A program made the translations under genes and the position numbers. From contig NMRA01000360.1 of assembly GCA_002633005.1 (NCBI GenBank), positions 375,065 through 439,064 of the forward strand: 64,000 nucleotides of DNA, written 5' to 3'. Position 1 is the stretch's first letter; each line of letters opens with the position of its first letter. The DNA comes from Phoronis australis. Lineage: Eukaryota > Animalia > Phoronida. Below, piece after piece: positions 1-61,575 of this stretch. The notes below the pieces were generated by a model. The model was given only the letters and a program-made list of their open reading frames with translations. It was not told the DNA's origin and searched no databases.

Positions 1-3000
1 CTCATCTGTCGCAACACTTACGAGCGGGAGATGTTCGACCGTGCGTCTAAGAAGCTTGGATTAGACAAGGCGGTCTTACAGTCGATGGGAGGCAAGGAGA
101 GCATCGGACAGGTAGGCATCATTGTCTCTGGGTTATCACGTTTAGTTCAGATGGATTGTAATGTCTGTCTTTTGATTGCATTTTATACATCAAAAAGTAC
201 AATCAGTCCATGTAACTAGTTGTTTTGGACTTTAATTTGCTCGTGTCTGTTTCGTAAACCAAGTTAGTGGGATTACCTGCTTTGCTTGTAATGCATCTTG
301 ATAATTGCAAAAAAAGTTGCTCAACAAACTTGGAAGAATCTAGTATTCCTGCTGAACACCGACCAGAACTATCCTGTACAAACTAATGCCTTGTCTTTAC
401 ATTTCCTATTATTATAATTTGTCGGTTTTCTGTCACCAGCAAAACCAGTTGTCCAAGAAGGAGGTTGAGGACCTACTGAAGAAGGGCGCCTACGGTGCGT
501 TGATGGAGGACGAGACGGCGGGCGACAAGTTCTGTGAGGAGGACATAGACCAGATCCTGCAGCGCAGGACGCAGGTCATACAGATAGAGTCTGTGGGCAA
601 GGGATCCACTTTCGCAAAGGTACGCTGGTGTAGAGTTGAAGTAGGAGTTGCGTGAATATCGTTAATCAAACTCTCTAGAGTAAGACTCTGGTAGGGTCCA
701 CTTAACCCATACTGTTGAGGGTGCAGCGTTACAGTTCATTAATTATTTGCCTGATCTTTCAACAACAGACGAGGTTAGATAGGGTCAAGTCAGTAGTTGG
801 CTTTGACAAAGCAACGCACTCAGTGAGGACTTGTGTAAAATTACATTGGTTTGGTCGTGGCATTAATCATGGCAAGGGTGCTCACTTTGTGTATGTGTTG
901 CGTTGTAATTGACCTGACCCTGGTGATGCTACCCAACGCCATTTACATAGGGATACCACTTGTAGGCTTTGCAAAATAACCGTTTCATTACCCTGTGTTA
1001 TGATGACTTGCCATGCTAATACCGAAAGTCGGGTGCCTGAGAATGTGTCTCGGCGTCACGGCTTGTTGAGTTCAACCTCAACTTCTCGCAGTGACGAGAA
1101 CTGAACACGGGTTATGCTTCTATTAGAACGTTTGGAAATAAGGATGAAGTGAAATGATTATTTGTGATTAGAGGCTCAGGTAGTGCTTAGGGATAGGTGT
1201 TACATCTGGTCTTTCTCTTTCAGGCGAGTTTTGCCCAGTCTGGCAACAGGTCAGATATTGACATTAATGACCCCAACTTCTGGCAGAAATGGGCCAAGAA
1301 AGCCGACATCGACGTCGACGCTCACAAGAAAAGGGTATTTAGCAGCTTATTTTTCAGCTGTTATTTAACGTCATCTGCTAGTCTGTTTAGGGATATTGTC
1401 TGAGACTTCTTGATAATGAAAACGTTTCGTGACCAAAATTGGTGGCNAAATGCACCCCTGAGCGGGGGGGCAAATGGCCAACTTGTTTCATATGCTCTTA
1501 TAAGGTCTATAGACTGTAAGTGGAAAGTAAGAGGAGCTCTCACGAACCATTTGAACCAAAAAGTGTTGAAAATAATGTAGAATGATGTAGTAACAAGCTT
1601 TGTGAGTTGCACTTAAACATTGAAATTATTCAAAATAGAGTTTATTGAATTGTGAAATATTAATAAACTGGTGATTTGTCAACTATAAGACTAACTTAAC
1701 CATTTGACCTCCTTAAGAACAACCTCATCATCGAGGAGCCCCGCATGCGCAAACAGACGGCGCGCTATGGCAACCAGGACGCGATGAACTTGTCGGAGCT
1801 GGAGTCGACAGAAGATAGCGATGAGGAGGAGTCAACGACCACTATGGTGACGAGGAAGAGGCGTGGTCGACGTAGGAAGCGCGACGACGACTTTGAAGGT
1901 TATGAGGCGGAGGAGGGCACGTTTGCACGGTCTGAGTGTTTCAAGGTGGAAAAGAATCTGCTCGTCTATGGGTAGGAAGGATTTTCCAACTTCTGTTTAT
2001 TCGTAATGGGATTGTGTGTGTATTTGTGTGCCCGTTAATGCCCAGGACGATTAGATTNCTCTTTGTGAGTTGCACTTAAACATTGAAATTATTCAAAATA
2101 GAGTTTATTGAATTGTGAAATGTTAATAAACTGGTGATTTGCCAACTATGAGATTTAACTTAACCTTTTCACCTCCTTAAGAACAACCTCATCATCGAGG
2201 AGCCCCGCATGCGCAAACAGACGGCGCGCTATGGCAACCAGGACGCGATGAACTTGTCGGAGCTGGAGTCGACGGAAGATAGCGATGAGGAGGAGACAGC
2301 GACCACTATGGTGACGAGGAAGAGGCGTGGTCGACGTAGGAAGCGCGACGACGACTTTGAAGGTTATGAGGCGGAGGAGGGCACGTTTGCACGGTCTGAG
2401 TGTTTCAAGGTGGAAAAGAATCTGCTCGTCTATGGGTAGGAGGGATTTTCCAACTTCTGTTTATTTGTAATGGGATTGTGTGTGTGTATTTGTGTGCCCG
2501 TTAATGCCCAGGACAATTAGATTAGGGAACTGAAAATTCAGGGTGTGGGCATTAAATCGAGCTGGAGTGTTAAAATATTTTTTGGAAATTATCGTTAGAG
2601 TTAAATGTGGATGGATGTAAAACCCAGCGTGGGCATTCAAAGGTAATCCTGGAAATTTTGAAAGTGGGTCTTAAGTTGAATATGGGCTGTAATCCAGATG
2701 AGTACAGTAACGTTTTCTGTTAAAAGATTTGGTTAATAATTCCTTGGCAGCGTGTGGCTAGTAAGTACATTTTAGTTATGAAAGTGTCATGTTTTTAATC
2801 CACCTCTTGTGTAGGTGGTGAACTGCATCAATTAAGCCGGCTACAAATGTTGTTATTTGTTAGTGACATACGATGCAGACATTATTTCACGAGTGCTTCG
2901 TCTGTTGTCTGCTGTCTTTGTTTTACAGTACACCACTCCGCACTTGTGTTACAAAATCTTTCTTGAGGGGAACTGTGTATTCCGCTGTTAGATTTTTTCC

Positions 3001-9000: not shown

Positions 9001-12000
9001 GTAAATTTACGTTTAGGCGTGTGTAAATTTACATATGACCTCTGGAGGTGGACAGGTGTAAGTATACACACGAGTGTAGCTTTGCACCGGGGTGTATTAG
9101 CGTTCATACGGCAAAAATACACACCACACATAAATATACGCTCGGATGTAAACACCATAGTATGAATGGGGCTTATTATCTCAAACGCTATGTGGTCAAT
9201 GAATCACGAGTTGTTTTGTTTCAAGTGTAGTCAGGCGTCAGAAACAACATGTTGGACTATTCCACTATGTATTTGTCTTTGTATCGGGCATATGTGTGAA
9301 GTGTCAAGTGGTTTTTGGAGGATTTGTACCGTAGACTTTGCAATATTGTACTTGCATTAGTAGGAGTGCATACAGTGAGGCCAGTGTCTTGTCAGTTGAG
9401 TACAAGTTCTCATGAGTAATATGTGTTGATGAATGTGCCCAGATGTGGGAATAAATCACTTGACAATCTGCAGGTGGTGCTGAACATTGTATATTCAGGC
9501 CTTAGTGAATTATTAATGCATGTCCTGTTTTTCATTTGGTAACTGTTTTAGTTTTCAGTCTACCAGACTTTATTACTGGCATGCTATAGAATTTTCTTCA
9601 ATTTTAATTTTCCTTATTTACAGTGATGAGGACCCTGAATTCAAGCCAGCCAATAGAAACCGGCTGTTCAAAGATGATCTCGAGGACCTGTCTGTAGACA
9701 GTCCTGCCTCTGAAATGACACCGACCAAAGTTCCACCAGCTATGGATACCTCCAGTGGTGAGTTATGAGGTGTAGCTTCATACTTGTGTTATTATCGGCT
9801 GGATGCGATGTTTTATTCTAGCCAGAACAAATTAAGAAGCGGTTTCAAAACTTCAGAACTGACAATTTCACACTTGTACCGCTCTTAATATGTGGGCCAG
9901 TGTTGCTCACCATATTTATGTGTCGAAAGTGGTGTGGCTGATAGTTTGGGTAACAGTCTGGTTCCATGTCCAGGCATTAGGTGGCGTTACCTGTACATGA
10001 TATTGTGTGACTTCATAGAGCAATTCGCTCACCAGTTCTTGCACGGATTAAAAGACACTTCATGTTTGGGCAGAGTAAATAATAGTAATTTTGGGCCCAG
10101 TTCCTAATTAGTCCAGTGAAAGGTTTGTTTTCTTTTGTACTGTTACTTAATACGTTTAGCTTCAACTTTCCTTGTTTTTGTCAGCTGACAACAGTGACAA
10201 GCTCCCCTGGCCGACACCGTCAGATCTCAACACTCGCTTAAGACGGGTTATCACTGGCTACCAGAAGAACCTTAAGAGACTGCAGCTTGAAAATGAGAAG
10301 AGAGCAAAGGTAAAACAAGTCTGTGCTGAAACAGATGAGGTTTTTGAGGTGGTGAAAGCTGCAGCTTTTGATAGATTATTATTTTGTGTATCGGGGTATT
10401 GAAACCCCAAACTATGTTTAAATCTTCTGAGAATATAGTGTCCATTCGTTAGAAGAGGTGGAATTTGACGTAGTTATCATTTACCTATGCTTGTCTTGTT
10501 TATAATATGCATTTGAAAGTAGTATTCTTTGATATATCGTCTGTGCATGCGCTGAGGATTTCCCCGTATATAAATGTCCAGTTCTAGAACGGGCATTTTA
10601 GAGAACTGTGCCTGTGTGTGCACATATAGTCACAACGTTGTGCTTTGTTTCAGAAAATGATGCGTCACGAGCGTGCCACTGCCGTGCTGCATGAGCGCGA
10701 ATTGCAACGACTGGAGCAGAAACAGCGGTGGACGCGACGCGAGGAGGCCGAGTTCTACCGCGTCGTCTCCACGTTCGGTGTCGAGTTTGACCCGCGTCAA
10801 CGGCTTTATACGTGGAACACGTTCCGCCGACTGGCACGTCTTGAGAGGAAGTGGGATGAGACACTGACTGAGTACTTCTTAGCGTTCTACTACATGTGCA
10901 AGAAAGTGTGTCATAAGGTCGACAAGGATGGTACGTGTTTATTTATGCGGTCAGTATTTACGTGTTAAAGCCTATCTTGAATGGTAACACCTGTAATTTT
11001 GGTTCTTACAGTATGTTGAGAGCATCGCTCTGAGCCCACTAGTGCCATAAATTGCCAAATGTAACGAACTGTTATACGTATTGGCTCGCTTTTGTATTGA
11101 TTTGCTTTTGTCTACATCACCGCGAGAATCACCTTTTAGTTTAAACAGCTGCGAATAACACCCGCACACAATGGTGTTCTGTTCAGACTCCTATTCAATA
11201 TAACTGTTATGGACCTTTTGTTGTTTGTTCTGGGATCTCGGTGTGACGCAACATGGCACGAAAAGGCAGCTTCGCCTATCATTTGACGGGCTTTCATTTG
11301 CTTGATTGAACTCGTGATTTCTCATTTACTAAGGCTTTGCTTGGACTATCTGGTTAGCCTAATACATCTAAAGTAACAAAATTCTGTTGAAGTTCGGCTT
11401 TAAGGCCACTTCCATGTCTGGTATGTGTGAAGGTGTAATTGGGTTTTTCTTTAAATGATTATACTATTCTGCTATATGAGATTTTTCTTGCCTGCGCCCA
11501 AAATTCAAGGTTGATGACACTTGACACCATGTGATGTTTGATCTCAAATATACTAACCTTTTAGTAGACCATATACCACTTTCTTATTCATTCTAAATTA
11601 AGACAAAAGTGATCTCCATGCTCCAGAAGAACTAGCAATATACGTACGGCTGAATTCAGTAAAGTGGATTTGCGGGTGATGAGTTGTATAGCTGCCAGCC
11701 AAATAAGAGATAGTCTCCTGTCTCACCTCTACACGGAGTTACTGTTGCGTGATTCCTGATGTGTGGAGATACGTCAACCTGTGAATGCACACGGTACTAT
11801 TTCAGAGCGCCCGCCCAACAATCTATACATAGAGGCGATCACGGAGGAGCGTGCCGCACGCTGCCTCGCTCGCATCGACCTGCTGAATGAGATTCGGGAG
11901 GAGGTGTTGTGGCACCCCAAGCTGGAGGAGCGTCTCAAGCTATGTCGCTCCTCTCTGGATCTGCCAGTTTGGTGGGTGAACGGGGAACATGACAAGGATC

Positions 12001-15000
12001 TGTTGATTGGTGCTGCTAAGTGAGTACTGTTGTGTAACGCTGACCTGTAAGTGGATTAGACACTGATAAGTGAGTACTGTTGTGTAACGCTGGCCTGTAA
12101 GTGGACTAGACATTGCTAAGTGAGTACTGTTGTGTAACACTGGCCTGTAAGTGGACTAGACACTGCTAAGTGAGTACTGTTGTGTAACACTGGCCTGTAA
12201 GTGGACTAGACACTGCTAAGTGAGTACTGTTGTGTAACACTGGCCTGTAAGTGGACTAGACACTGCTAAGTGAGTACTGTTGTGTAACNGTCAATATTTA
12301 CGTGTTAAAGCCTATCTTGAATGGTAACACCTGTAATTTTGGTTCTTACAGTGTGTTGAGTGCATTGCTCTGAGCCCACTAGTGCCATAAATTGCCAAAT
12401 GTAACGAACTGTTATACGTATTGGCTCGCTTTTGTCTAAGTCACCGCACGCAATGGTGTTCTGTTCAGACTCCTATTCAATATAACTGTTTTGGACCTTT
12501 TGTTGTTTGTTCTGGGATCTCGGTGTGACGCAACATGGCACGAAAAGGCAGCTTCGCCTATCATTTGACGGGCTTACATTTGCTTGATTGAACTCGTGAT
12601 TTCTCATTTTACTAAGGCTTTGCTAGGACTATCTGGTTAGCCTAATACATCTAAAGTAACAAAATTCTGTTGAAGTTCGGCTTTAAGGCCACCTCCATGT
12701 TTGGTATGTGTGATGGTGTAATTGGGTTTTTCTTTAAATAATTATACTATTCTGCTATATGAGATTTTCTTGCTTGCGCCCAAAATTCAAGATTGAGGAC
12801 GCTTGACTCCGTGTGATGTTTGATCTCAAATACAAAATTGATGACACTGGACACCGTGTGATGTTTGATCTCAAATACACCAACCTTTTAGTAGACCATA
12901 TACCACTCTCTTACTCATTTTAATGTAAGACAAAAGTGATCTCCATGCTCTAGAAGAACTAGCAATATACGTACAGCTGAATTCAGTAAAGTGGATTTGC
13001 GGACTATGAGTTATATAGCTGTCAGTCAAATATGAGATAGTCTCCTGTCTTATCTCTACACGGAGTTACTGTGTGATTCCTGATGTGTGGAGATACGTCA
13101 ACTTGTAAATATGCACACGGTACTATTTCAGAGCGCCCGCCCAACAACCTATACATAGAGGCGATCACGGAGGAGCGTGCCGCACGCTGCCTCGCTCGCA
13201 TCGACCTGCTGAATGAGATTCGGGAGGAGGTGTTGTGGCACCCCAAGCTGGAGGAGCGTCTCAAACTATGTCGCTCCTCTCTGGATCTGCCAGTTTGGTG
13301 GGTGAACGGGGAACATGACAAGGATCTGTTGATTGGTGCTGCTAAGTGAGTACTGTTGTGTAACACTGACCTGCTAGTAAACTAGACACTGCCAACGTCT
13401 CTACTTAGCAGTAAAGACGGCGGTACTCCCATAGGGCCTTCATACACCAGAAGCTTTTCAGCGAATTTTGCCTGACATTGATTACACCATCAAAGTCACA
13501 TTGTTATAAATACCTTTTGCATAAAGAGGGACACGTCAGGAGGCTGCCGATGTCTTTAATTCCTTCCAACTCGAACAAATACTCCAGTAATCAAAACTTT
13601 TTTCAAGTAGTCCTTTGTTCAGTTGCCCAAATCGGCAACTGGCCATTTTTACACTGCTCGCGCTCAGGGATATGATGTCACTGGCACTGTCTACTGTTGG
13701 ACTGGCTTATCATTAACTGTGTTGTGTATTTGTTTCCTTTGTGTTGAAAATCAAACGTCTGTGGTAAGACATCTGCTGATATCTCCGCTATGTCGAGTTC
13801 TTGAACGCAGATGTCCACTCTTGCTGTAAACCTATGTTGGGACGTGTATATCATTACTCGTTTACAGACACGGACTGGTGCGAACTGACTACCACATCCA
13901 GTACGACCCGAAGCTGTGCTTCAGAGAACTAATCAAAAATCAGACCGACCAAGTGCGTCTTGGCTCCAGTCAGGGCTTCCAGGTGCTTTCAAATGGATCT
14001 CAGGGTAAGGCTGGATTCATTCAACGTTTCAGCTTTCTCACTACTTATTTTGTTGCAAAAAATTATAGCAAGATAGCTGCCCTGAAAAGGACTTGGCTAA
14101 CGCGTTGCTTGAGACGGCTTAACAAACCAAAATGAATCCCACACACAGACGAGATACTACTGTGGAATACTAAGATGTTAACACACCTTGTTCAAGAACA
14201 GAAAGTGTCTCGTTGGATAAACCTACAATTAAAAGATTTTATTCCACTGTAGTACCTAAGTGTCCCTAATTTCCGGTCGCACTAGTTGTGAACATGCACT
14301 AGTTGTGCACGGGCTGTCGCTTTTGGTGTTTGAAACTAAGGATTTCATAATTCATCCCTGCAGTCCAACTTGTGTTGGTGCCTGGAATGAAGATTGAGTA
14401 GACCTGCATTTTTATGTAATTTGCATTGTCAAAAAGATATTTATCATGGTTATTTTAAATCCTTATGTACAAAACAATGTGAGATCAAAGCATTAGAGCA
14501 TGGTCTCTTTAAAGGATCATGGAATTTTTCAATGATTCAAAGTGGTTTGCTAATATCACAACTGAGCAATAATATTAATAGATGTAATGAGACATGGATG
14601 TTTTGGTTAGACTTAACGTGGCCTTTATTAGATAAATTAAAAATTAATTACATTTCACATGTTTTGACTAATTAAGGTTTTTGTGGAGTGATTTTTATGC
14701 GAGGTTCAATAAATCAATCAGACCTGATTATTGCAGAAAAACTATTTAAAGAAGAAAAGTCTAAAGCAGTTGTTGACGAGAAGCCGATAAAGGTTGAGGA
14801 ACCGGTCATAAAATCTGAGACTGCCTCCTCTAAAGACATTGAAGTCGGTGTCAAACAGGAAGATAGCCCATCAGAGGGCGCCAAATCTAGTGACGTTCTG
14901 TTGAGTGATGTTAAACCTGGTGACATTAAGTCGGAGACAACCGACACCGATGTGGAAATGGCCGAAGAGAAGGGGTCAGTAGACGAAAAAGAGATTAAGA

Positions 15001-18000
15001 CCGAGCCAGCTGAGGAGAAGGAAGTAGCGAGAGAAGGGGAGGATGTCGAGCATGAGGTGAAGTCAGAGGAGGCCACAGTGAATAATGGGTCCGGGGAGGA
15101 TGAAGGGGTGAAGGCTGAAGAGAAGGAGGAGACGGACTCCATGCCTACACTGGAGCCCGAGATGGAGAACCAGGTATTTTGATATATTGCTTTGATGTGA
15201 GAATGGTTGTGAGGCAAACGACCTAATAATTTAGGAGTGGTTTCAATGTCTACTACCTTCTAGCTGACTCGTTTTCTGTGGTTATCTGCCGTTGTGATTT
15301 ATTATTGAAGGGAAATAAGAAGAGAAAGGAAATTGATGAATAAATTAAGGCTTGAAATTTTGTGCTCAATAAAGTAACTGTTAGATAAGGTGTGACTGTC
15401 ATGTGTGCCTTGACGCTTATATTTATCTGAGTAATGGTAAGGGATTTTGAGGCTCAGCGTAATTGCATTAGCTGTCTACTGAAAGTTGTGTGAGTGACAA
15501 GACTGTGTTTTTCTGCAGGACTCGCGAGCGGAGAGCACCGCCTGTACAGAGCCTGGTGACCTGACAGTTATGGACGCCGACAAGGATTCTTCAGTAGCGG
15601 ACATTCTGGCACAAACACTACACAATCGTTCTATGCAGTGGCCCAAGGTACTTTACTGTTTGTAACACATGTCCATACCTCGATTTATCGTGGTAATCCA
15701 ACCTCTGGTTTCTGTGAGACAGAAACTTGTCTATACTGCTATTTATTGATGTTAATCTAACCTCTGGTTTCTCTTAGAACCTGGCCATCCTGTGATTACA
15801 GTCATGGCGAGCTGAAGTGTCCACAGCGGTTGTTCTCAGCTGGCTAATACCTCAGTGTATTTAGATGCCATGTGCTTGAGATGTAGGTGTTCTACCTCGT
15901 CTCTGAACATGTCCTATCTGGTTGCTGAATTTCGCCTTTCTCAATCGTTGCCTGGGAATATTTCCTCTCGTGTGGTATCCAGGAAATTGCATGCCTCTTC
16001 TCATGATGTTACATTGTCGGAACGTAAAGTTAGACAGACTCTCATGGGAGAATCTTAGTGTAGAAATGGATGTACTGAGTGGATAATGTGTTCAAGAGTC
16101 CGGTGGCCAGTTGTGTGAAACGGTCCCACATAGGGACTCTACTATGTTCCCTAAATCCTCTGCATATTTGTGGGCCTGTGAAAACACCGATTACCCTTTC
16201 TTACGCTGTTTGAGTATCATTACTAAGTCAATTTTTGATTTGATACAAATCGAGAGTGAACTTTATGTTGAATTCTCAATATTATTGAAAATATATAGGG
16301 ACCTTTTCATGCAATGCTTCTAATTTTGAGGACTCGGTCCTTAATTGTTTTTACTAGAGGACTCTGTCCTTAATTGTTTTTACTAAATTAAGGCCTCAGT
16401 CTTTAGTTATATTATTAGAAAATGCCATTAGGCAAAGAGGAGCTCATAATGAAGACAAAGTGATAGAAAAATATATTTGGCTAAAAAACAAAAGAAATAC
16501 GAAAAAGGCTTTTTGGTTGAATCCCTATTTGGGTTTGTTTCATGCAACCGGGCACGGGAATCCACTGAATATTATGTTGTAGGACCGTGTCATCTGAATA
16601 TTATGTTGTAGGACCGTGTCATCTGAATATTATGTTGTAGGACCATGTCATCTGAATATTATGTTGTAGGACCGTGTCATCTGAATATTATGTTGTAGGA
16701 CCGTGTCATCTGAATATTATGTTGTAGGACCGTGTCATCTGAATATTATGTTGTAGGACCGTGTCATCTGAATATTATGTTGTAGGACCGTGTCATCTNA
16801 GCGAGAGAAGGGGAGGATGTCGAGCATGAGGTGAAGTCAGAGGAGGCCACAGTGAATAACGGGTCCGGGGAGGATGAAGGGGTGAAGGCTGAAGAGAAGG
16901 AGGAGACGGACTCCATGCCTACACTGGAGCCCGAGATGGAGAACCAGGTATTTTGATATATTGCTTTGATGTGAGAATGGTTGTGAGGCAAACGACCTAA
17001 TAATTCAGGAGTGGTTTGAATGTCTACTACATTCTAGCTGACTCGTTTTCTGTCGTTATCTGACGTTGTGATTTATTATTGAAGGGAGATAAGAAGAGAA
17101 AGGAAATTGATGAATAAATTAAGGCTTAGAATTTTGTGCTCAATAAAGTAACTGTTAGATAAAATGTGACTGTCATGTGTGCCTTGATGCTTATATTTAT
17201 CTGAGTAATGGTAAGGGATTTTGAGGCTCAGCGTAATTGCATTAGCTGTCTACTGAAAGTTGTGTGAGTGACAAGACTGTGTTGTTCTGCAGGACTCGCG
17301 AGCGGAGAGCACCGCCTGTACAGAGCCTGGTGACCTGACAGTTATGGACGCTGACAAGGATTCTTCAGTAGCGGACATTCTGGCACAGACACTACACAAT
17401 CGTTCTATGCAGTGGCCCAAGGTACTTTACTGATTGTAACACATGTCCATACCTCGATTTATCGTGGTAGTCCAACCTCTGGTTTCTGTGAGACACAAAC
17501 TTGTCTATACTGCTATTTATTCGTGTTAATCTAACCTCTGGTTTCTCTTATAACCCGGCCATCCTGTGATTACATTCATGGCGAGCTGAGGTGTCTACAG
17601 CGGTTGTTCTCAGCTGGCTAATACCTCAGTGTATTTATATGCCATGTGCTTAAGATATAGGTGTTCTACCTCGTCTCTGAATATGTCCTATCTGGTTGCT
17701 GAATTTCGCCTTTCTCAATCGTTGCCTGGGAATATTTCCTCTCGTGTGGTATCCATGAAATTGCATGCCTCTTCTCATGACGTTACATTGTCGGAACGTA
17801 AAGTTAGACAGACTGTCTTGGAAGAATCTTAGTGTAGAAATGGATGTACAGAGTGGATAATGTGTTCAAGAGTCCGGTGGCCAGTTGCATGAAACGGTCC
17901 TACATAGGGACTCTACTATGTTCCCTAAATCCTTTGCATATTTGTGGGCCTGTGAAAACACCGATTGCCCTTTCCTACGCTGCTTGAGTATCATTACTAA

Positions 18001-21000
18001 GTCAATTTTTGATTTGATACAAATCGAGAGTGAACTTTACGTTGAATTCTCAATATTATTGAAAATATTTAGGGACCTTTTCATGCAACGCTTCTAATTT
18101 TGAGGACTCGGTCCTTAATTGTTTTTACTAAATTAAGGCCTCAGTCTTTAGTTATTTTATTAGAAAATGCCATTAGGCAAAGAAGAGCTCATAATAAAGA
18201 CAAAGTGATAGAAAAATATATCTGACTAAAAAACAAAAGAAATACGAAAAAGGCTTTTTGGTTGAATCCCTATTTGGGTTTGTTTCATGCAACCGGGCAC
18301 GGGAATCCACTGATAATTATGTTGTAGGACCGTGTCCTCTGAATATTATGTTGTAGGACCATGTCATCTGAATATTATGTTGTAGGACCGTGTCATCTGA
18401 ATATTATGTTGTAGGACCGTGTCATCTGAATATTATGTTGTAGGACCGTGTCATCTTCCTTCGCCTTGAGCAAGTGTGTCACTGCATCAAGACGGGCGAA
18501 TGGAACACAACGCGCAAGTCTAGCTACAACCCGTACGACTCGCTCTCGGCCACACCCATTGGCACGCCATCAGCTCCGCCCAGGACAGATACGCCAGAGT
18601 ACAGCTTCGTGGACACTCCCGATTCTATGTCAGGATTCAAGGTGAAAAGTGGTCTTAGTTCAAAAGACTTGAGGGTCTGTGTAAAGGAGGTATGAGCAGT
18701 GTGTGCGTGTCATGCCGTGTGTCAGTCTGGTGTGTCGTAGGTAGAGAACTTACTGGCTGACTCGCTGACATGTCCTTTGACCGTGGTTAGGCTGCACACT
18801 GTTCACTGATGACGTGTCTTCAGGACAGGAATTGCACATGATTTCCTCACTGACTAACTTCACTATGCATTTTGTTTGAATTCGTATAACTCTACTAAAC
18901 TCTCGAGTTGAAGTAACTTGTGTCTCCAGAATTCTGTAGTTATTATTGGCCAGTTCTAACTGGTAATTAGTAAAGCTATTTTTGGTCACAAATATTTTCT
19001 TTGGCTTAATGGTTGATGTGATACATATATGTAGATGTGAGACATATATGTAGATGTCATACATATATGTAGATGTGATACATATATGTAGATGTGAGAC
19101 ATATGTGTAGATGTGATACATATATGTAGATGTCATACATATATGTAGATGTCATACATACATGTAGATGTGAAACATATATGTAGGTTCTAGGCTAAAA
19201 CACTCTACTGGAAATACAGATGATGAAACTAGATCCAACTCAGACTTCACTGTGTTGATTAATATCAATTCGAGCTTTTTAACCCTGATGTATTTCCACT
19301 ACTGTACCTTTTCTGATTTGCATAGTCGAGATTTTAAAGTTTTCGCTTTTTGAATTTGTTCGGAATGACAATACGGCTTGGTAACTTTTTGTTGCTCAAA
19401 CCAACAGGGCGAAGGGTTGAAGTTGACCATCCACAAAAGGCGAGGCAGACGGAGAAAGGCGGAAATTGAGATGGAACGCAGTGAGTCTTGTTACGCACTT
19501 GTTTTTGTCACGGCAGAGTCACGCTTAAAAATATCTCAGGCTAAGGTTTGCTAGTTTTGCTGGATATCTGAGTCGTAGATAGATAACCAGAAGTTAGGTT
19601 AAAGTAATGAGCAAGTTGAAGGGTAATGTATCTTTGGATTAGTGGTATTGGCTTGGTTTTTTTGATTTACCGTTAGTAGTTGAAAAGATTTTTGAATACG
19701 TGGTGAATATAGTGTGAGAAGCCTGCCATGAGTTCTTGGCCTTTTTCATTCACCTGCAGCTGTACGAGAACTGTCTAATTTTAAAGGGCTGTAACTGTGG
19801 TACTTGCAGAAATCAAAAAAATCTGCTTAACTTTTGAACTTTATGTTTGGTATTTTGTCGTGACTATTCGACTCAAATGTTTGTATCAGAAGTCAGCCAT
19901 GAGCTGGGGAGTACTTGTATTGTTCTGAATATATCTTGCTTGTATTTCAGATGCAAGGCTGCGTGCTCTAATGGGAACACCCAGTATGGCCTCCAGTGAC
20001 GGGGAACACAGCGAATCCAGCATGTCCGCCATGAATGTAAGTCATGAATATCACGAATATTCACCCATGTGTGAGTAATTTATTAAAACTAAATCTTGAT
20101 AGTACTTAAGAAAAGGGGATTTTACTTAATTCCCATAGATTTACAGAGCCAAAAATATGAAGTTGGTGCTATAGTAAACTTTGCAAAGTCAAACTTTAAT
20201 CTGTGCTCTCGTGTCAGTGTTTCAGTTCAGAGGTTTCTCATTTCATAAATACTAACACGGACGACTCCTGTGGTGTTATGAACTTTGGAAATGAGTTGGT
20301 AATTTTATTGCGACACCATGAAGTTGGGACGTTTCTGTGCATTCTTGGGGAATACAAATGATGAAATTAGATCCAACTCAGAGCACACTGTGTTGATTCA
20401 TTTCAATTCGAGCTTTTTAACCCTGATGTATAGCCCCAAGAAATGCACGTTCTTGTAAACGCGTTCATAACTGGCGATAATTGACTGCTATGCCTGTCTA
20501 CATAGTGTTACATTCATCAGTTGAACATACCCCGTGTGTATTGTCTTTCTTCAGGTGTCTGACATGGTCAACGGGAGAAGTGCTGCAGATCTGTTTGGAT
20601 TGGGCCGAGATGTAGACAGTGAGGGAAGTTTACTGCAAGAGGTCAGTCGATTTGTTTTCGACAGCTTTGTGTGCAATTAGCAGCCATGAATTTTAGTCTG
20701 AATCCAATTTATTAGTGATCTTATCTTTGACTACGGAAATACACGTGATGAAACTGGATCCAACTCAGACTGTGTACTGTGTTGATGTTTCCAAATTCGA
20801 GCTTTTTAACCCTGATGTATTTCTGTACAGTAATTAGACAAACCCTGTGTAGATTGTGTACCTGTTTCTGATTTCTAGTGCAGTTATCATGTTGCAAAGT
20901 ATTCAGAAAATTGAACCATGGCTATTGTTCATCTGAAAGTCCAGTTTGCGTGTAGCGATATTCTGTAAGGTTTACATGTCATTGGCTATTGGGTATTTAG

Positions 21001-24000
21001 ATGAGTTCGCTCAGTTCAATTTGTGAATTCTCATTTTAACACAAAGAACTAATCTGTCAACTGTCAGGGCTTGGAATTTTCCTCTTTTAAGGAGATTTCC
21101 TCTTTTTTGGTTTCGATTTTCTCATATTTGATTTCCAGTTTCCGCTTTTTTCATCTCTTTTTTATCATTACTTTAACTTTCTTCGTGCTAAAATGTTTAT
21201 TTCAGTTAAATATTAAAACACAAATAAAATATTTCTATCACACCAGCCTATTTATTTCTGGAACTATAGGGCCTACATCACCTGGAAAATTTTTCTCGTT
21301 TTTGTCAGTGGTCATTCCAAGCCCTGAACTGTATTGCTGACATGGGAACTGATTTGGCTGTGAATCAAACTTGAATTTTTCTTGGGAATGATGTAATATC
21401 GCTATCAACAACTAACATTTTATTATTGTGGATGTTACAGGAGGGTGACGTCCCGGTTAAGAAGAAGCGAGGTCGTAAGCGCAAAGCAGACAAGCTGGCG
21501 GAACAGGCACTGGCTGAGGCTCTGTCCATGAGGAGACATACAGCTGGAAGGACAAGTTTTGACCCTGGTATGTCCATCAGCCCAGCTACAGATTGGAGAC
21601 AGTAGTAAAGCAGTGGCAACTAGCTATTGCAGCCTTAGACTTGTAAAACCGCTGGATACGTGGAGTCCTTTTGCTATTGGATGAAGTGTATTGCTATAAA
21701 GTTATCCAGCAAAAATGGCACTCTCTTGCCATGCCTCATGTGAAGACAGTACTAATATCACATGTAGACAAGTTGTGATAATTTGAAGAAGTTGAGTAAG
21801 ACAAAGTTTTGAAGATTATGAATTAAAATAAAGTAATCTGGTGTGATTTTGCACGCTTTGATGCTCCATTTTTCTGTCAGTTCTATTGGATCAATACATT
21901 TTCGTTGATACTAATTATTATTGATTAAATATGGTCAGTAGCCAATAGGGTTGAATATTTACCTTGCTTGACTATTTTGGTACAATTTGACAATTCTCTC
22001 ATTTTACTAGAACCATTTCAACGGAAATGCTGGTTAGTGGCATTGTTTCCTGATGATGGTTTGATATCAGTAAGCTGAAACATTGACAACTTGGATCATG
22101 AATCCCGTCTCGGTTTTCATTTTCAACTTTCTCCTGGAAATACCTATTTGTATTGAATAAAATCAAATTGTTGCCTCTTTTTCTTGTACAGAAATATTGA
22201 TTTTGTGTGCACTTATAAGAGGTTAAGCATTATTTTAAATCTGATGGCCTGATAGCCGGATTTTAAATGACTGTTTTGCTGACGTGTTAGTTCTTTCTCC
22301 TCAGAGATGGTGCTTGCGCAGGCATCTCTTCACCAAGCCTCTCTGCTGTTTGCCGAGACGCGCGTGCCCGTCATCAATCTGAAGGACGGTAGCCGCCTGT
22401 CCGGGGACCAGGCTCCCATGCGTAAGGACCTGGAAGAGTGGCTAGAGGAACACCCTGGTTACATGGTGGAGGCAGCCGAAGATGAGGAGGTGGGTGTTAC
22501 CGCCAGTTGTGGACTGAGGGGAGAAAGGCTATAATGAGATTCACTTATACATAGTTGATGATAAATAGTGCAGGTGCACGCTATTTTGACTTCTACCCTA
22601 TTTATTCGGAATGGAAGACTTTGTATTCAGGAGGTGGCGCCAGTGAATAAAGGCTCCGTTTTGAACACCTGAATAGATTGGGAGCAGAGAGCTGTTGATG
22701 AGAATACTGGCGTCTTTGCGCGGATGGTCATGTTGATTACCCGAATGAATGCTTATGTATGGGTAGGACCATTGTCTCACTAGCGCCATCTAGTGAATAT
22801 AAAGTTGCCCTTTTATTGATTGGTGTCACTTGGCTTGTAGTTTTCACCTTGAAACGTGTATGTACTATACACCATATTCACTCAGTATCCGTTTTAAAAG
22901 TGAGCCTCTTTTTAGGTTTTGAAAACAATGCATTTTGCGCTTAAATAGAGCGGAAAACGTGATTTTTTTTTGCATGCCTCGTTATATTCTTGTCTCAAAT
23001 GCAGTGTTTTTTTTTTAAACTTAAAAAGAGGCTCACTACTAAAATGGTGACGGCATGAGTAAGGTCTATTGCTTGAAGTTTCATTGTTGTGTTGACCGCT
23101 GAATGAAGCTCTTGTCCAGTTTTGTAATTACTGCAGGCCTCTTAAGCATGGTGAACCAACATATTTTATGTTTTACAACTGTGGTTGTTGCTATGGAAAT
23201 ACAGATGATGAAACTAGATCCAACTCAGACTCTGCTGTGTTGATTAATATCAATTCGAGCTTTTTAACCCTGATGTATTTCCTCCTATGGATTATATTGT
23301 TTGCGTGATGGTTGTTAAGTTTTGGTTCGTGAAACAGTTTTGAATACAAAACATTCAACATGTCACTGTTACGTGTTATAAAAGCATATAACCTTGACCC
23401 ATTTTCCTACTCGGGTGTTCTGTGCAGGTAGAGTTTATGCAGAAAAAGTACAATTTTTTGTTCAAAGGCATTGGGACTTCTTTTTGTGAATCATTTGAAT
23501 ATCTAACTGCGAGTTCCACTGCTTCGAAATCTCTGTCCAAAACTCTAAGTTACATGTAAAATGTCCTTGGTGCCACATTTTAGTGCTCAAAATAATCCGT
23601 GTGTAAATTGGAATGTGACTGTTGCCTTATACTTTGCTGTTGCTTATGTTTCAGGGCATGTTAGATAAACGGCGGAGACGTAGACCGCGACTGGACCCCT
23701 TGAGACTTGACCCTGACCACATAACTGGAGATGAAAACGTGTCTGTGATAAATAGGGAAACTGGCAAAAAGGTGTGTTAGTTTGGCTCAGTTAAGTGTGC
23801 TAACTTGTGTGGATGAAATATATATGTTCACTTGGTGCTTATGAACACAGTTGTAGTTTTTATACCAAATTTAGATTTTGGTGTAGATAGCTGTTCTAGC
23901 ATTTGTTAATGGCTTGTCAGAGAATGACAGAAGTTCGGGAATTTTTTATTGATTGGTGTTTTTGGGAAGGTTTTTTGCTTGTTCTCGATTAATTCTTGCT

Positions 24001-25304
24001 GTCTTTTTTTCACCTTGTCTTTTTTGCATAATAGTATGGCTGACATTAAATCGCTTATGACTGAGATGGTGCATCTTAGTAAACCATTGTTACCATTCCA
24101 GATTACTGGTGCAAAGGCTCCCCCCATAAAGCATTTGGCTCTGTGGCTGAAACAGAACCCTACGTTTGACGTGGACCCCAAGTGGGCACACATCGTGAAG
24201 GAGAAGGCCGACATTCCCGACGAGCTCAAAGACAGGATACGTCTTCCATCAGACAGGGGGCGCCGCAGTATGCCCAGCAGCTCGCTGCTGCCACCTGAGC
24301 TCCAGTTCCCAGGAACATCTGGTCTCGGTGCATTGCCCAGCCTCACTAATCCAGCCATGTTGAGTGCTATGCACAAGTTTCCACTCAACGTTCCGTTCGG
24401 TGGTCTTCCCTCCATGGGCCTAATGTCTTCAATGATGGGTCTGCCCAACTTCCCCTTCCCAGTCGTCTCCACGGCCAACTCGGACTCCGCCAGTGATAGA
24501 AAGAGCCCCAAGGACTCGAGCAAGCGCAAGTCTGACTCGCCAGGTAGTAGTAGCAATGCCGCTGTCGCGGCGGCTGCTGCCGCCGAAGCAGCAGCGGCGA
24601 CTTCAGCTGCTGCGTTTCCGTTCATGTACAACCCGTTCATGTATCACTCACTGTTGGCAGCGCAGGGCCTGGCTGGCTTCAGTCTTCCTACCAGTCTTCC
24701 CACCTCGTTTGCCACCTTGGCTCAGGCAGGGCTGGCTAATGGTTTGAAGGAATCAGAGGAGACGGAAGAATCCGCACGCAAGTCGGAGGGTGAACAGGAG
24801 GAGGCCCAGGATTTGTCCGTTAAGAAAACAGTTGAGCCAGAGAAAACTCGTGAGGGAGGCCAAAGCTCTAGTGAACACAAACACTCTAAGGAGAAACATG
24901 GCCATCATCACCACCACCATCGAAAGCACAAAGATCGACATGGGGATCACAGTTCACAACGTAAGACAGACAGCAGCAGTCAGTCGTCTTCGTCGCGAAA
25001 AAAGATTGAGCGAATCGCTGAAGCTCTAGCCATTAAACAGAACAAAGACGGCGTGGCGGAGGATAGTCACCCCGAGCCAACCAAAGACAAGGGTCGAATC
25101 TCGTCTCCGGTACCGTCTGTAAGTGAGCCGAAAAACGATGGCGAAACTTTGGAAAAGAGCAAGGCTGTTGATGCTTCTAATGTTGCAGCTAGTGCTCTGG
25201 TAGTGGAAGAAATGAAATCTGATAAAGCGGAGAATGTTGTTGATGTTGAGATGGGGTGTGAGTCTGGGGAGGTGGACGATGTGAAAGAAAGTGTAGATAA
25301 TTAA
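1..25304 (+). CDS. CHD7: Chromodomain-helicase DNA-binding protein, CHD6-9/Kismet subfamily; 3' part only (end of helicase C-terminal domain, SANT/SLIDE-like region, two BRK domains)
   Basis: GT-AG exons joined in frame: <1-111, 440-619, 1224-1334, 1718-1971 (duplicate 2182-2435), 3113-3200, 3466-3574, 3949-4120, 5814-5903, 6304-6404, 7897-8008, 9624-9757, 10185-10309, 10654-10930, 11806-12019 (duplicate 13132-13345), 13868-14004, 14737-15173, 15519-15647 (duplicate 17293-17421), 18444-18689, 19408-19480, 19951-20036, 20555-20641, 21441-21567, 22305-22489, 23655-23771, 24102-25304 (TAA). Diagnostic peptides: [100 protein letters not shown]-type [17 protein letters not shown] and [17 protein letters not shown]. 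The symbol is nominal because the gene is co-orthologous to CHD6/7/8/9. Confidence 0.95.
991..1111 (+). ncRNA. SNORD8: Intronic box C/D snoRNA, SNORD8/SNORD9 (mgU6-53)-like guide for U6 snRNA Am53
   Basis: Terminal stem CCCTGTGTT/AACACGGG; box C ATGATGA 1000-1006; GCCATGCTAAT (1010-1020) is the exact complement of U6 nt 50-60; D'-like CCGA 1022-1025 puts U6 A53 at the fifth position; box D CTGA 1101-1104. Confidence 0.9.
1598..2523 (+). repeat. Tandem near-identical duplication (1598-2057 vs 2061-2523) containing one CHD exon; probable uncollapsed haplotypes
   Basis: Copies are separated by a single N at 2058 and differ by scattered substitutions and small indels. Confidence 0.8.
3252..3408. 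repeat. 30-bp minisatellite, about 5 copies, in a CHD intron
   Basis: Unit ACATGTTGTTGCAGTAACACTRTATTGTAA repeats at 30-bp spacing. Confidence 0.95.
4177..5647. mobile_element. Non-autonomous Tc1/mariner-superfamily DNA transposon, about 1.47 kb
   Basis: TA|CCGTATTCGCCCTAATAA ... TTATTAGGGCAAATACGG|TA: terminal inverted repeats with TA on both sides; no transposase ORF. Confidence 0.85.
6539..6749. mobile_element. MITE of the CAGGGCTTGGAAT family
   Basis: AGGGCTTGGAAT ... ATTCCAAGCCCTG termini; internal similarity to 21065-21326. Confidence 0.85.
8036..9173. mobile_element. Non-autonomous TIR element with subterminal TACAC/GTGTAAAT repeats
   Basis: TA|AGCCCCATTTATA ... TATGAATGGGGCT|TA; both ends are rich in TTACACCCGTA and GTGTAAATTTAC motifs. 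Superfamily uncertain (Harbinger- or Tc1-like). Confidence 0.75.
10951..13367 (+). repeat. Tandem duplication (10951-12288 vs 12290-13367) containing one CHD exon; probable uncollapsed haplotypes
   Basis: Single N at 12289; the exon copies encode the same peptide; intronic indels differ. Confidence 0.8.
12013..12288 (+). repeat. 50-bp minisatellite that includes the exon end and 5' splice site
   Basis: TAA|GTGAGTACTGTTGTGTAAC with GT at 12020, 12070, 12120, 12170, 12220 and 12270. Confidence 0.95.
13433..13670. repeat. Dispersed repeat fragment, second copy at about 29290-29495
   Basis: Shared blocks CATACACCARAAGCTTT, ACCATCAAAGT, CTCGAACAAATACT and TTGCCCAAATCGGCAACTGGCCATTTTTA occur in the same order. 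Confidence 0.75.
16565..16798 (+). repeat. 29-bp minisatellite containing a 3' splice site, at least 8 copies
   Basis: Unit CTGAATATTATGTTGTAG|GACCGTGTCAT; AG ends run from 16582 to 16785 every 29 bp. Confidence 0.95.
18310..18455 (+). repeat. Same 29-bp acceptor minisatellite, 5 copies; the last copy is the productive acceptor
   Basis: AG ends at 18327, 18356, 18385, 18414 and 18443; only the last continues as [14 protein letters not shown]. Confidence 0.95.
19014..19185. repeat. 19-bp minisatellite, about 9 copies
   Basis: Unit GATGTGATACATATATGTA with variants. Confidence 0.95.
19209..19298 (+). ncRNA. Intronic box C/D snoRNA copy 1; dual guide for 18S rRNA (SNORD36-type Am668 and SNORD19-type Gm683)
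   Basis: Stem TGGAAATACA/TGTATTTCCA; box C ATGATGA 19220-19226; guide AGATCCAACT followed by D' CAGA 19241-19244; guide CGAGCTTTTTAAC(C) followed by box D CTGA 19285-19288. Confidence 0.92.
20343..20442 (+). ncRNA. Intronic box C/D snoRNA copy 2 of the dual-guide family
   Basis: Stem TCTTGGGG..ATACA/TGTAT..CCCCAAGA; box C 20358-20364; both guides intact; box D 20423-20426. Confidence 0.92.
20732..20827 (+). ncRNA. Intronic box C/D snoRNA copy 3 of the dual-guide family
   Basis: Stem TACGGAAATACA/TGTATTTCTGTA; box C GTGATGA 20745-20751; guides GGATCCAACT-CAGA and CGAGCTTTTTAACC-CTGA (box D 20812-20815). Confidence 0.92.
21065..21326. mobile_element. MITE with CAGGGCTTGGAAT TIRs and 6-bp target site duplication
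   Basis: AACTGT|CAGGGCTTGGAAT ... ATTCCAAGCCCTG|AACTGT. Confidence 0.92.
23195..23282 (+). ncRNA. Intronic box C/D snoRNA copy 4 of the dual-guide family
   Basis: Stem GGAAATACA/TGTATTTCC; box C 23205-23211; both guides intact; box D 23270-23273. Confidence 0.92.
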
Positions 25305-59954: not shown

Positions 59955-61575
59955 CAGAAACTGTCCAGTAGTCAGGCACACTTCGAGTACACTTTGAAAT
60001 TTCAGGCGATGTGATTGGTCCAGTCTTGGTCGTGACTACAAATAAGATCAATTCGTGGCTTTAGAACGTGTTCTTATTGTGACGCCCATTGTATTTTGTC
60101 ATTTCTGAAGCATTGTTATTTGATGTACTACTTTAAGTGAGATTGTGTTATCTAACATCTATTGGTATGCAATCTTTGCATTTTTATACAGCACTCTTTT
60201 TGTGAGACCCCTGTAGTGGGGTTAATTGTACGAGTAGTTTTTAAATCATATTGAAGTACTTCATTTTTACCTGCACTACACAGGAAGTTGGCATCTGCTT
60301 TTAACGCAAGTTTTAAATCGCATAAATTTTTATGCGAATTTGTTATTGCGAGAACATGGTTTTCAAGTTTTGCTGTCTTGCATGTTTCAAAGCCACGTGC
60401 TGTCCCTGTCTTAAGAATGTAGGTTAGGCAAACGTGGTGAAACAGACATTGACATGAGCAGTGGCACACTCCCTTCTGAAGTTGGATCTGTGCTTGTGCA
60501 ACTGGACCCAAATGTTAATTTGATCTCATTGTAAATATTAGTTGGTTTGCTTGGCTAGAATTCGAGTCTGTTTTGCTGTTGCCGGAGCCAAGTACTGTGA
60601 TTTTTGTTTTGTTGAGAATGCACCAAGTATTATAGTTATGTTTTGCATCACTCTACAGGTTCATGGTTGCAGCATGGGTGTAGCTGATGTTGAATCAAAA
60701 AATAGGCTGCAGGGCATACACATTTATGTTCTGCCATTGCCACATGATCAAAGTGATACATTGAGTTTACCCAGGTCAACCGTGCTCTTATTTTCCACCA
60801 GTATGTGGATGTGCATTGGTGAGTCACTGGATGTAAAAATATTAAGTTACAAAAAGTTACAAAGTGTATTCTAAACTAGCAGACTGACATTGTTCCGAGG
60901 AATTGCCCTGTAGCTTTTTCGAAATTGTTATTTTACCAGTCTTATCTCAAAAAGAATTTAATAATTAATTTCCAAGATTACTTAAACCATTATAAAACTA
61001 GACTCAACAGGTCATTTCTAGGCCGACTGTTTGGTATTGCTGGAGACCATGTTCGTAAAGTTGGCTCGTCATGGCACCTAATTGTTGGTCATTTCCTAGC
61101 TCGGAAATTGCTCGTCAGTTGAGTAAAGAATGAGAAGAGACCATTTTTTGTGTTAAGTGTCTGGTCGCATCTTTGTACTGGAGAAGTGAAACTTTCAGAC
61201 TCTGTATGTTGTTAGAACAACAGTGCGCTCTATTGAGTGGATGCCTCTGCATGCCTGTTACACCATAACAGACATATCCTGTTCCATTTCACAAGTCCAT
61301 TTTTAGTTTCAACAATAATCGGCAATTGTTTTGCTGACGTCAGTTATTACAGAGATGTTGTTTTAATTGCTGCATAATTAAATGGTAATTATTTGTATAC
61401 ATTGTACAGTCTTAGAGAAATAGTTTTATAGTATTAGCATAGATTTACAGTTTTGCCTGAACAGCAGCATTTTAAGAAATAGTATATTTATGGTTCCTTT
61501 AGTTTGTTGTGTTTGCAATATATTAATTCTTAATTATGATAATCTAAATTAGGTCGCTTATATGAATCATGCTTC

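What the first reader, a model, noticed from the sequence alone, without database searches (positions are those of the whole stretch)
19209..23282. Four-copy intronic family of dual-guide C/D snoRNAs that tile one contiguous 24-nt stretch of 18S rRNA
Seen: four ~90-nt copies, each in a different CHD intron. Boxes C, D' and D and both antisense elements are essentially invariant, spacers and flanks diverge, and each copy keeps its own terminal stem, which is the pattern of purifying selection. Knowledge: eukaryotic 18S reads GUUAAAAAGCUCG-U-AGUUGGAUCU. By the fifth-nucleotide rule the D guide (CGAGCTTTTTAAC) marks the first A of GUUAAAAAG (human Am668, SNORD36/yeast snR47) and the D' guide (AGATCCAACT) marks the G 15 nt downstream (human Gm683, SNORD19). 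In humans these sites use separate snoRNAs hosted in RPL7A and GNL3. Inference: here a single RNA carries both guides, its two duplexes abut with a 1-nt gap (like archaeal dual-guide sRNAs), it sits in a chromatin-remodeller host, and it has spread intron to intron. Whether this fusion is already described in other invertebrates is not known to me.
Basis: partly seen in the sequence, partly recalled or inferred. Interest (0 to 1): 0.82.

Follow-up and report, generated by a model that had tools for sequence, protein, structure and literature searches.

The report
Dual-guide SNORD36 variant in CHD introns
Four introns of an animal chromatin-remodelling gene each hold a small RNA gene of the known SNORD36 family whose two guides are predicted to mark two neighbouring sites of ribosomal RNA that humans serve with separate RNAs; the same pairing occurs in other, distant eukaryotes, so it is likely an overlooked, widespread variant and not a local invention.

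Summary
Observation confirmed. Four C/D snoRNA genes lie in four read-confirmed introns of a CHD6-9/kismet gene. All are full-length Rfam SNORD36 hits above threshold, so the family is known. The D guide fits the 18S site of human Am668. The D' guide is not SNORD36's usual 28S guide; it fits 18S Gm683 (human SNORD19), 15 nt downstream, and more weakly 28S G4464.

It is not a lineage-specific fusion. One metagenome scan gave the same pair, in the same register, in eight further lineage groups: animals (another CHD gene, RPL23A), green-alga-like contigs and other eukaryotes. The D' guide's unsearched bases match common 18S variants. Ten literature searches found no description of this pair. The geometry (two sites 11-18 nt apart), guide shuffling, intron-to-intron spread and CHD8 as a snoRNA host are all published.

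Not shown: methylation, mature RNA ends, this species' own 18S, and whether the spread reflects common descent or convergence. The scan noted intronic SNORD36-type triplets on other DNA, but not this guide pair.

Verdict: new variant of a known family, moderate interest.

The parts
19209..19298 (+). snoRNA copy 1 with 10-bp terminal stem; box C 19220-19226, D' guide 19231-19240, D' 19241-19244, D guide 19271-19283, box D 19285-19288; in intron 18642-19407
   Evidence: Rfam SNORD36 46.9 bits; anatomy; intron joint in reads
20344..20440 (+). snoRNA copy 2 with interrupted terminal stem (core 20352-20431); box C 20358-20364, D' guide 20369-20378, D guide 20409-20421, box D 20423-20426; in intron 20037-20554
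   Evidence: Rfam SNORD36 43.6 bits; joint in reads; no reads on the copy itself
20732..20827 (+). snoRNA copy 3 with 12-bp terminal stem; box C 20745-20751, D' guide 20756-20765 (one A>G change), D guide 20798-20810, box D 20812-20815; in intron 20642-21440
   Evidence: Rfam SNORD36 38.3 bits; joint in reads
23195..23282 (+). snoRNA copy 4 with 9-bp terminal stem; box C 23205-23211, D' guide 23216-23225, D guide 23256-23268, box D 23270-23273; in intron 22490-23654; 96.6% identical to copy 1 over 89 nt
   Evidence: Rfam SNORD36 43.5 bits; joint and sense intronic reads
18448..25301 (+). 3' part of the CHD6-9/kismet-family host gene: exons ..18641, 19408-19480, 19951-20036, 20555-20641, 21441-21567, 22305-22489, 23655-23771, 24102-25301
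   Evidence: Read joints; one open frame; BRK domain, and HTH_CHD6-9 upstream at 10630-10965; only protein hit Mytilus CHD9, 37%
995..1109 (+). snoU6-53 (SNORD8/9-type) C/D snoRNA further upstream in the same host gene; context, not one of the four copies
   Evidence: Rfam RF00377 41.7 bits, gathering 36; human SNORD8/9 are hosted by CHD8

Best explanation
These are four intron-encoded box C/D snoRNA genes of the SNORD36/U36 family, likely released from the spliced CHD pre-mRNA and predicted to guide fibrillarin to 2'-O-methylate two bases of 18S rRNA 15 nt apart: the Am668-equivalent A through the D guide and the Gm683-equivalent G through the D' guide. The two duplexes (13 and 10 bp) would lie head to tail on one 24-nt stretch with one unpaired U between them. 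The target would pass from the D spacer to the D' spacer around the C'/D' motif, so one RNP could bind both at once. The D' guide may also methylate 28S G4464, as vertebrate SNORD19 does. The pair is a widespread variant of U36. The four copies arose by duplication within the host gene.

Shown: sequence, boxes, stems, intron positions, family membership, complementarity to surrogate rRNAs, and occurrence in other eukaryotes. Inferred: processing, methylation, simultaneous binding, the 28S target and the mode of duplication.
For: Family: full-length SNORD36 hits for 4 of 4 copies. Introns and strand from reads.

Targets: the D guide's best match in all four rDNA loci tested is the 18S site (13-14 bp), with A at position 5. 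The D' guide gives 10 Watson-Crick pairs on 18S of the GGAUCU type (L119, L101), with G at position 5, 15 nt further on. The published Gm683 substrate reads the same way.

Wider occurrence: the metagenome pattern gave 74 matches in 71 loci, 15 distinct strings. In 14 of 15 a D'-like box follows the searched heptamer directly, an A precedes it and a C-like box lies upstream; the pattern asked for none of these. The exception, L026, is an ordinary snR47. The two unsearched bases 5' of the core are AG or AA in those 14 strings, complementary to the two commonest 18S variants (CT in 11 and TT in 27 of 44 distinct 18S contexts). In non-animal-looking loci pairing runs to 11-12 bp on an 18S variant against 8 on the 28S site.

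Expression hint: sense intronic reads appear in the bin holding copy 4 and continue 3' (depth 4.3 and 6.0, against 0 just upstream, runs X2 and X3), and at copies 1 and 3 in X2.
Against: This species' own 18S was not available (no genome); surrogates are 18S contaminants in prokaryote assemblies. On one surrogate operon with a different 18S variant (L140) the copy-1 D' guide paired no better with the 18S site (8 bp plus one G-U) than with two unrelated places. There is no methylation or small-RNA data. No sharp RNA ends were called, depth was a few reads from one study, copy 2 had none, and run X4 showed none on any copy. D' is CAGA, not CUGA. Fold z-scores are modest (-1.7 to -2.3). The O. 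tauri snoRNA in a MIF4-like host has lost this D' guide, and Arabidopsis has no mapped methylation at the G683-equivalent, so the element is dispensable in some lineages.
Confidence: 0.8

Rival explanations
1. The D' guide works mainly on 28S G4464 (the SNORD69/plant snoR34 site), and its fit next to the D-guide site in 18S follows from the shared GUUGGAU motif.
For: The 28S site shares the core (L140 position 6982). SNORD19 methylated both substrates in yeast. Arabidopsis snoR34 has a D' guide with the same core, and Gm2918 is assigned to it. Three RPL23A-hosted copies (L009, L010) carry a D' that fits 28S better (9 bp plus a wobble) than GGAUCU-type 18S (8 bp).
Against: The window's guides give only 7 Watson-Crick pairs plus wobbles on 28S against 9-10 on GGAUCU-type 18S. 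Across lineages the 5' extension follows 18S variants, not the 28S sequence (one 28S sequence tested). As a second target G4464 stays likely, about even odds.
Confidence: 0.08
2. The D' element is only an extra base-pairing arm that strengthens binding for Am668 and places no methyl group on the G.
For: Extra pairs next to the main duplex are common: 45 of 104 Arabidopsis sites, more than half of them directly adjacent. D' is the non-canonical CAGA.
Against: The G falls exactly at position 5 from the D' box in the window and in all 8 other lineage groups, a register that the search did not impose. An enhancer arm would be free to slide.
Confidence: 0.08
3. One reading: a recent fusion of a SNORD36 guide and a SNORD19 guide peculiar to this animal lineage. 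In its wider form: the same pair arose several times independently.
For: Yeast snR47 and vertebrate SNORD36 share the other pair (18S A668 plus 28S A3703/3724), which suggests that pair is old in opisthokonts. The D' element of U36 differs again in rice, O. tauri and Dictyostelium. Antisense-element shuffling is published. Hosts differ among lineages.
Against: Uniqueness to this lineage is ruled out by eight other lineage groups, some with plant-like or protist-like host genes. Repeated independent gain is not ruled out: I put it at about 0.45 against 0.55 for common descent. This question concerns history and is compatible with the best explanation of function.
Confidence: 0.04
4. The four copies are an assembly artefact or dead copies.
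For: The window has near-identical duplicated blocks beside single Ns, for example 15026-16711 against 16800-18456 at 95%. Copy 2 had no reads.
Against: No N lies between 16800 and 30175. Flanks of the four copies are at or near random identity, each copy lies between different read-joined exons, and each has its own paired stem ends.
Confidence: 0.01

Closest known systems
SNORD36 / U36 (Rfam RF00049; yeast snR47, plant U36)
   Same: Full-length Rfam match above gathering score; same D guide for the 18S Am668/Am619/Am623 site; intronic and multi-copy.
   Different: The D' guide is not the 28S A3703/3724 guide of the Rfam consensus, chicken, Xenopus and yeast; it fits 18S G683. The host is CHD6-9, not RPL7A.
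SNORD19 / SNORD19B / SNORD69 (GNL3-hosted, vertebrates)
   Same: Guide for 18S Gm683, with 28S Gm4464 as second target.
   Different: There the guide sits at the 3' (D) position (chicken table; SNORD19B match at model 59-78 of 84). Here it is the D' guide. The only Rfam support is 15 bits against a gathering score of 50.
Arabidopsis tandem dual guides (U24, U36a, snoR19, snoR22, snoR29, snoR44)
   Same: Two antisense elements on one RNA for sites 11-18 nt apart, proposed to bind together.
   Different: Different targets; none of them is the 18S A668/G683 pair.
Ostreococcus tauri Ot-CDsno3
   Same: U36-type D guide (18S A604), intronic in a MIF4-like gene; L002 has the dual form in an intron of CWC22 (MIF4G/MA3).
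   Different: Its D' element does not fit the G683 site and was assigned to 25S G1828. The paper's table lists no homologue in Bathycoccus or Micromonas.
Archaeal dual-guide C/D sRNAs (Pyrobaculum)
   Same: About 45% use D and D' guides on sites within 100 nt, with a proposed role in rRNA folding.
   Different: Not homologous in sequence; these are eukaryotic intronic snoRNAs.

Membership tests
Box C/D snoRNA | [quoted passage not shown] | tested here: met
   4 of 4 copies; stems 5-12 bp
Box C/D snoRNA | Internal D'/C' boxes | tested here: met
   D' CAGA and C'-like GUGUUGA in 4 of 4; both depart from consensus
Box C/D snoRNA | Antisense element of 10 nt or more just upstream of D or D' | tested here: met
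   13-14 bp (D) and 10 bp (D') on surrogate 18S; the species' own rRNA was not available
Box C/D snoRNA | Stable processed RNA with defined ends | tested here: inconclusive
   Long-RNA reads show sense intronic coverage at copies 1, 3 and 4 in one or two of three runs, none at copy 2, and no called ends
Box C/D snoRNA | Fibrillarin-dependent 2'-O-methylation of the fifth paired base | not testable with these tools
   Needs RiboMeth-seq or a guide assay
SNORD36/U36 (RF00049) | Score above the Rfam gathering threshold over the whole model | tested here: met
   46.9, 43.6, 38.3, 43.5 bits against 30; model 1-77/77
SNORD36/U36 (RF00049) | D guide for 18S Am668 | tested here: met
   Identical to the Rfam consensus guide; A at position 5
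SNORD36/U36 (RF00049) | D' guide for 28S A3703/3724 (vertebrate and yeast form; not universal, since plants and O. tauri keep it on a separate RNA) | tested here: not met
   The D' region does not match the consensus. This excludes the vertebrate/yeast subtype, not the family
SNORD19/SNORD19B | Rfam score above gathering; guide at the D box | tested here: not met
   SNORD19B 15 bits against 50, a 20-nt partial match; guide here at D' (copy 1 only)
SNORD19/SNORD19B | Works like it: complementarity placing 18S G683 at position 5 | tested here: met
   published substrate

The most novel reading that the evidence does not exclude
The A668+G683 dual guide is an ancient, probably pre-animal form of U36, hidden until now under the automatic label SNORD36. 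It is kept in lophotrochozoan-like animals, prasinophyte-like algae and SAR-like protists, and it clamps a contiguous 24-nt stretch of 18S during small-subunit assembly. Vertebrate SNORD19/SNORD69 would be its split-off D' element, and the RPL23A-hosted paralogues in L009/L010 would have repeated the SNORD19-to-SNORD69 switch from 18S to 28S independently.
Probability: 0.35. Interest if true: 0.6.

Novelty: new variant of a known kind. Interest (0 to 1): 0.42.

Why it matters
It would show that 18S Gm683, so far tied to vertebrate SNORD19, is predicted in several eukaryote lineages and is delivered by the other half of U36. Rfam-based annotation labels these RNAs SNORD36 and so gives them the wrong second target. 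The RNA is also a compact natural test case for whether one eukaryotic snoRNP methylates two abutting sites together. It does not change how C/D snoRNAs are thought to work: each ingredient (tandem dual guides, guide shuffling, intron hopping, a CHD host) is already in print.

Tried and rejected
No whole genome is held, so I could not read the species' 18S or 28S or look for a canonical SNORD36 or a separate SNORD19 elsewhere.

Two scans of viral contigs for 18S failed: 0 loci, then 19 loci that were all chance phage matches.

The look-up of sequencing runs listed no indexed RNA holder; the three raw RNA runs came by species label.

The shuffle controls allow mismatches and do not show enrichment (4 of 100 and 41 of 100 shuffles reached the count). 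I rely on exact matches, Rfam scores and flank divergence instead.

The lone D'-guide match at 60480 (- strand) has no box C upstream and was rejected. L026 was dropped from the dual-guide set as an ordinary snR47. Weak Rfam hits (SNORD12 30 bits against 43, ceN61 25 against 60, miRNA families on repeats) share only boxes or repeats. Model R1 found no further copy; its hits on its own training sequences are circular.

Exact protein look-ups named PWP2 but no organism, and 3 of 6 proteins were not in the collection. Look-ups of earlier findings by sequence and by genome gave nothing. The sponge intron paper had no hit for the family names.
Full report
WHAT IS THERE. Four related elements lie on the + strand at 19209-19298, 20344-20440, 20732-20827 and 23195-23282. 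Each has box C, a 14-nt spacer ending in the D' guide, D' (CAGA), a C'-like box, a spacer ending in the D guide, box D and a terminal stem. The D guide is exact in 4 of 4 copies. The D' guide is exact in 3 of 4; copy 3 has one change that keeps a G-U pair. Cores are 81-96% identical, while 100-nt flanks are 45-57%, against 47 +/- 3% for random pairs. Copies 1 and 4 are closest (96.6% over 89 nt) and keep a trace of downstream similarity (57%), which suggests a DNA-level duplication with decaying flanks (inference). A profile built from 20 homologues finds no fifth copy in the window.

HOST. Three stranded RNA runs with the same species label (one study, 18-19% of each run read) join the exons across GT..AG introns at 18642-19407, 19481-19950, 20037-20554, 20642-21440, 21568-22304, 22490-23654 and 23772-24101. 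The copies lie in the first, third, fourth and sixth of these. The joined exons give one open frame. Pfam finds BRK and HTH_CHD6-9. The only protein hit for the last exon is Mytilus CHD9 at 37%, so a lophotrochozoan is likely but not shown. The same gene holds a snoU6-53 at 995-1109; human SNORD8/9 of that type are hosted by CHD8 (PMC6466398, one table passage). The window has duplicated blocks next to single Ns, but none in the stretch with the four copies.

FAMILY. All four are full-length SNORD36 hits above the gathering score. The alignment matches at the boxes and the D guide and fails at the D' guide, where Rfam has the 28S guide. On copy 1, no other family reaches its threshold; SNORD19B gives a 20-nt, 15-bit match.

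TARGETS. No genome is held. I took eukaryotic rDNA contaminants from prokaryote assemblies as surrogates: 49 loci, of which 8 were given to Rfam and 8 confirmed as 18S, plus one whole operon, L140. These loci were selected by the joined pattern, so they show that such a site exists in 18S, not how common it is. The D guide pairs 13-14 bp with A at position 5. The D' guide pairs 10 bp on GGAUCU-type 18S with G at position 5, 15 nt downstream, leaving one U between the duplexes. Human Am668 (SNORD36) and Gm683 (SNORD19) are 15 apart (PMC11550049, table passage), as are chicken A629 and G644 (PMC2653536, passages). The tested Gm683 substrate in PMC6984369 (passages and supplement rows) has the same sequence. 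That paper shows that SNORD19 also methylates 28S G4464 in yeast. The window's D' guide gives 7 pairs plus wobbles on that site in L140, so a second target is plausible. Against: on L140's own 18S variant the copy-1 D' guide does not stand out from two other places.

EXPRESSION. With stricter matching, sense depth is 0 in the bin before copy 4 and 4.3 (X2) and 6.0 (X3) in the bin holding it, continuing to the acceptor. Copy 1 shows 4.4 against 0.8 upstream in X2 only, copy 3 shows 3.8 in X2 only, copy 2 shows none, and X4 shows none on any copy. Introns without a copy are at 0-1.3. This fits 3'-extended precursors protected at the snoRNA's 5' end (inference). The bins are 161 nt, the reads are few, no ends were called, and the intron of copy 3 contains a repeat that draws foreign reads. 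It is a hint, not proof of a mature RNA.

ELSEWHERE. One metagenome scan for the D' core plus the D guide and box D gave 74 matches in 71 loci, 15 distinct strings. In 14 of 15, features not asked for are present: a D'-like box directly after the core, an A directly before it, and a C-like box upstream. The 15th (L026) is snR47 beside RNase MRP, and I dropped it. The 14 fall into eight groups:
- L030: an intron of a CHD6-9 gene (best hit Pomacea, 68%). The matching interval of the window's gene holds no copy.
- L009/L010: RPL23A introns of two animal-like contigs.
- L002/L021/L050 group (53 loci): a CWC22 intron; best named hits are land plants.
- L001 group (8 loci): a PWP2 intron, in contigs of about 67% GC.
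- L005/L006: in L005 just after an RPS21 gene (best PDB match 5xxu, recalled as Toxoplasma).
- L019: just upstream of a Pus10 C-terminal frame, between splice-like sites.
- L018: a snoRNA cluster.
- L024/L032: tandem clusters.
The labels prasinophyte, alveolate and stramenopile are my inference from these hits and from recall; no call names these organisms. The two bases 5' of the core are AG or AA in all 14 strings, matching the two commonest variants among 44 distinct 18S contexts (CT 11, TT 27), and longer extensions fit 18S variants for 11-12 bp. I could not link each guide to its own organism's 18S, so this is agreement with common variants, not proven covariation. Rfam found three more copies in L009/L010 whose D' guide ends like the SNORD69 consensus and fits 28S better. 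The scan could only find this form, so it says nothing on how common it is against the canonical one.

WHAT IS KNOWN. Vertebrate SNORD36 and yeast snR47 pair A668 with 28S A3703/3724 (PMC3511168, table passages). Arabidopsis and O. tauri list the 18S and 25S jobs under separate RNAs, U36 and U36a (PMC7671301, passages and supplement rows). O. tauri's U36 sits in a MIF4-like gene like L002's, but its D' element does not fit the G683 site, and the paper lists no homologue in Bathycoccus or Micromonas. Rice U36I has another D' (PMC5122169, supplement passages, files cut when stored). Dictyostelium CD25 pairs A612 with 26S U3254 (PMC8817022, passages and supplement rows). So U36's D' slot is labile. 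Six Arabidopsis snoRNAs guide two sites 11-18 nt apart (PMC8053127, passages and section 13 whole), and about 45% of Pyrobaculum sRNAs target sites within 100 nt (PMC6009581, passages). Antisense shuffling and intron-to-intron movement are described in PMC6984369. The 18S rows I saw in PMC11542601 (one table passage) list no plant methylation between the A623 row and A780.

NOT FOUND IN PRINT. Ten searches gave no paper describing one RNA with both guides. For papers not named above I saw only listings and abstract starts. PMC3412847 had no hit for the family names. The library lacks most subscription papers, including older invertebrate and Chlamydomonas catalogues (recalled), and I could not see Rfam's full member lists or figure-only supplements, so an earlier record is possible.

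HISTORY. Common descent is favoured by the identical slot and register in nine groups across supergroups, and by the plant arrangement with a separate U36a. Convergence is favoured by the yeast-vertebrate pair, which implies the other form in the opisthokont ancestor, and by the lability of the D' slot. I cannot separate them (about 0.55 to 0.45).

VERDICT. Real, well supported as guide RNAs, a member of a known family with a second guide I could not find described. New variant of a known kind; interest 0.42.

Noticed in passing
L009 3740-3810 and 4409-4479 (- strand); L010 336-406: RPL23A-hosted paralogues with the U36 D guide and a D' guide like the SNORD69 consensus (fits 28S G4464 better than GGAUCU-type 18S), beside paralogues of the G683 type in the same gene: a possible independent repeat of the SNORD19/SNORD69 split.
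   Followed up: partly
window 995-1109: snoU6-53 (SNORD8/9 type) in the same CHD gene; human SNORD8/9 are in CHD8, so this host link looks old.
   Followed up: partly
window 1598-2523, 10950-13391, 15026-18456, 33313-36117: Near-identical tandem blocks (87-97%) on both sides of single Ns, duplicating CHD exons; probably haplotype overlaps in the assembly.
   Followed up: partly
window 23186-23654, 19161-19407, 20771-21440: Sense intronic reads appear at the bin holding a snoRNA copy and run 3' towards the acceptor, as 3'-extended precursors or snoRNA-capped transcripts would; few reads, one study.
   Followed up: partly
window 21060-21330 and 22760-23060: Interspersed repeats inside the host introns that attract many 90-95% identical reads; the first has a relative at about 6450-6810.
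   Followed up: no
window 19020-19190: Short tandem repeat (about 20-nt unit) just upstream of copy 1; gives spurious miRNA-family hits.
   Followed up: no
L018: Cluster of C/D snoRNAs (two snR61-like, one SNORD31-like, two SNORD52-like and the dual-guide U36) with no clear coding sequence; organism not determined.
   Followed up: no
L024 479-558 (- strand): A U36 copy with a third, unrelated D' element in the same tandem cluster as G683-type copies and snoR21b-like RNAs.
   Followed up: no
L026 7-941 and 1109-1206: RNase MRP RNA directly followed by an snR47-like snoRNA with the canonical 25S guide.
   Followed up: partly
window about 37000-52700: Exon-like frames (37003-37287, 52386-52703) that recall a retinoblastoma-like protein; label from memory, no call.
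   Followed up: no
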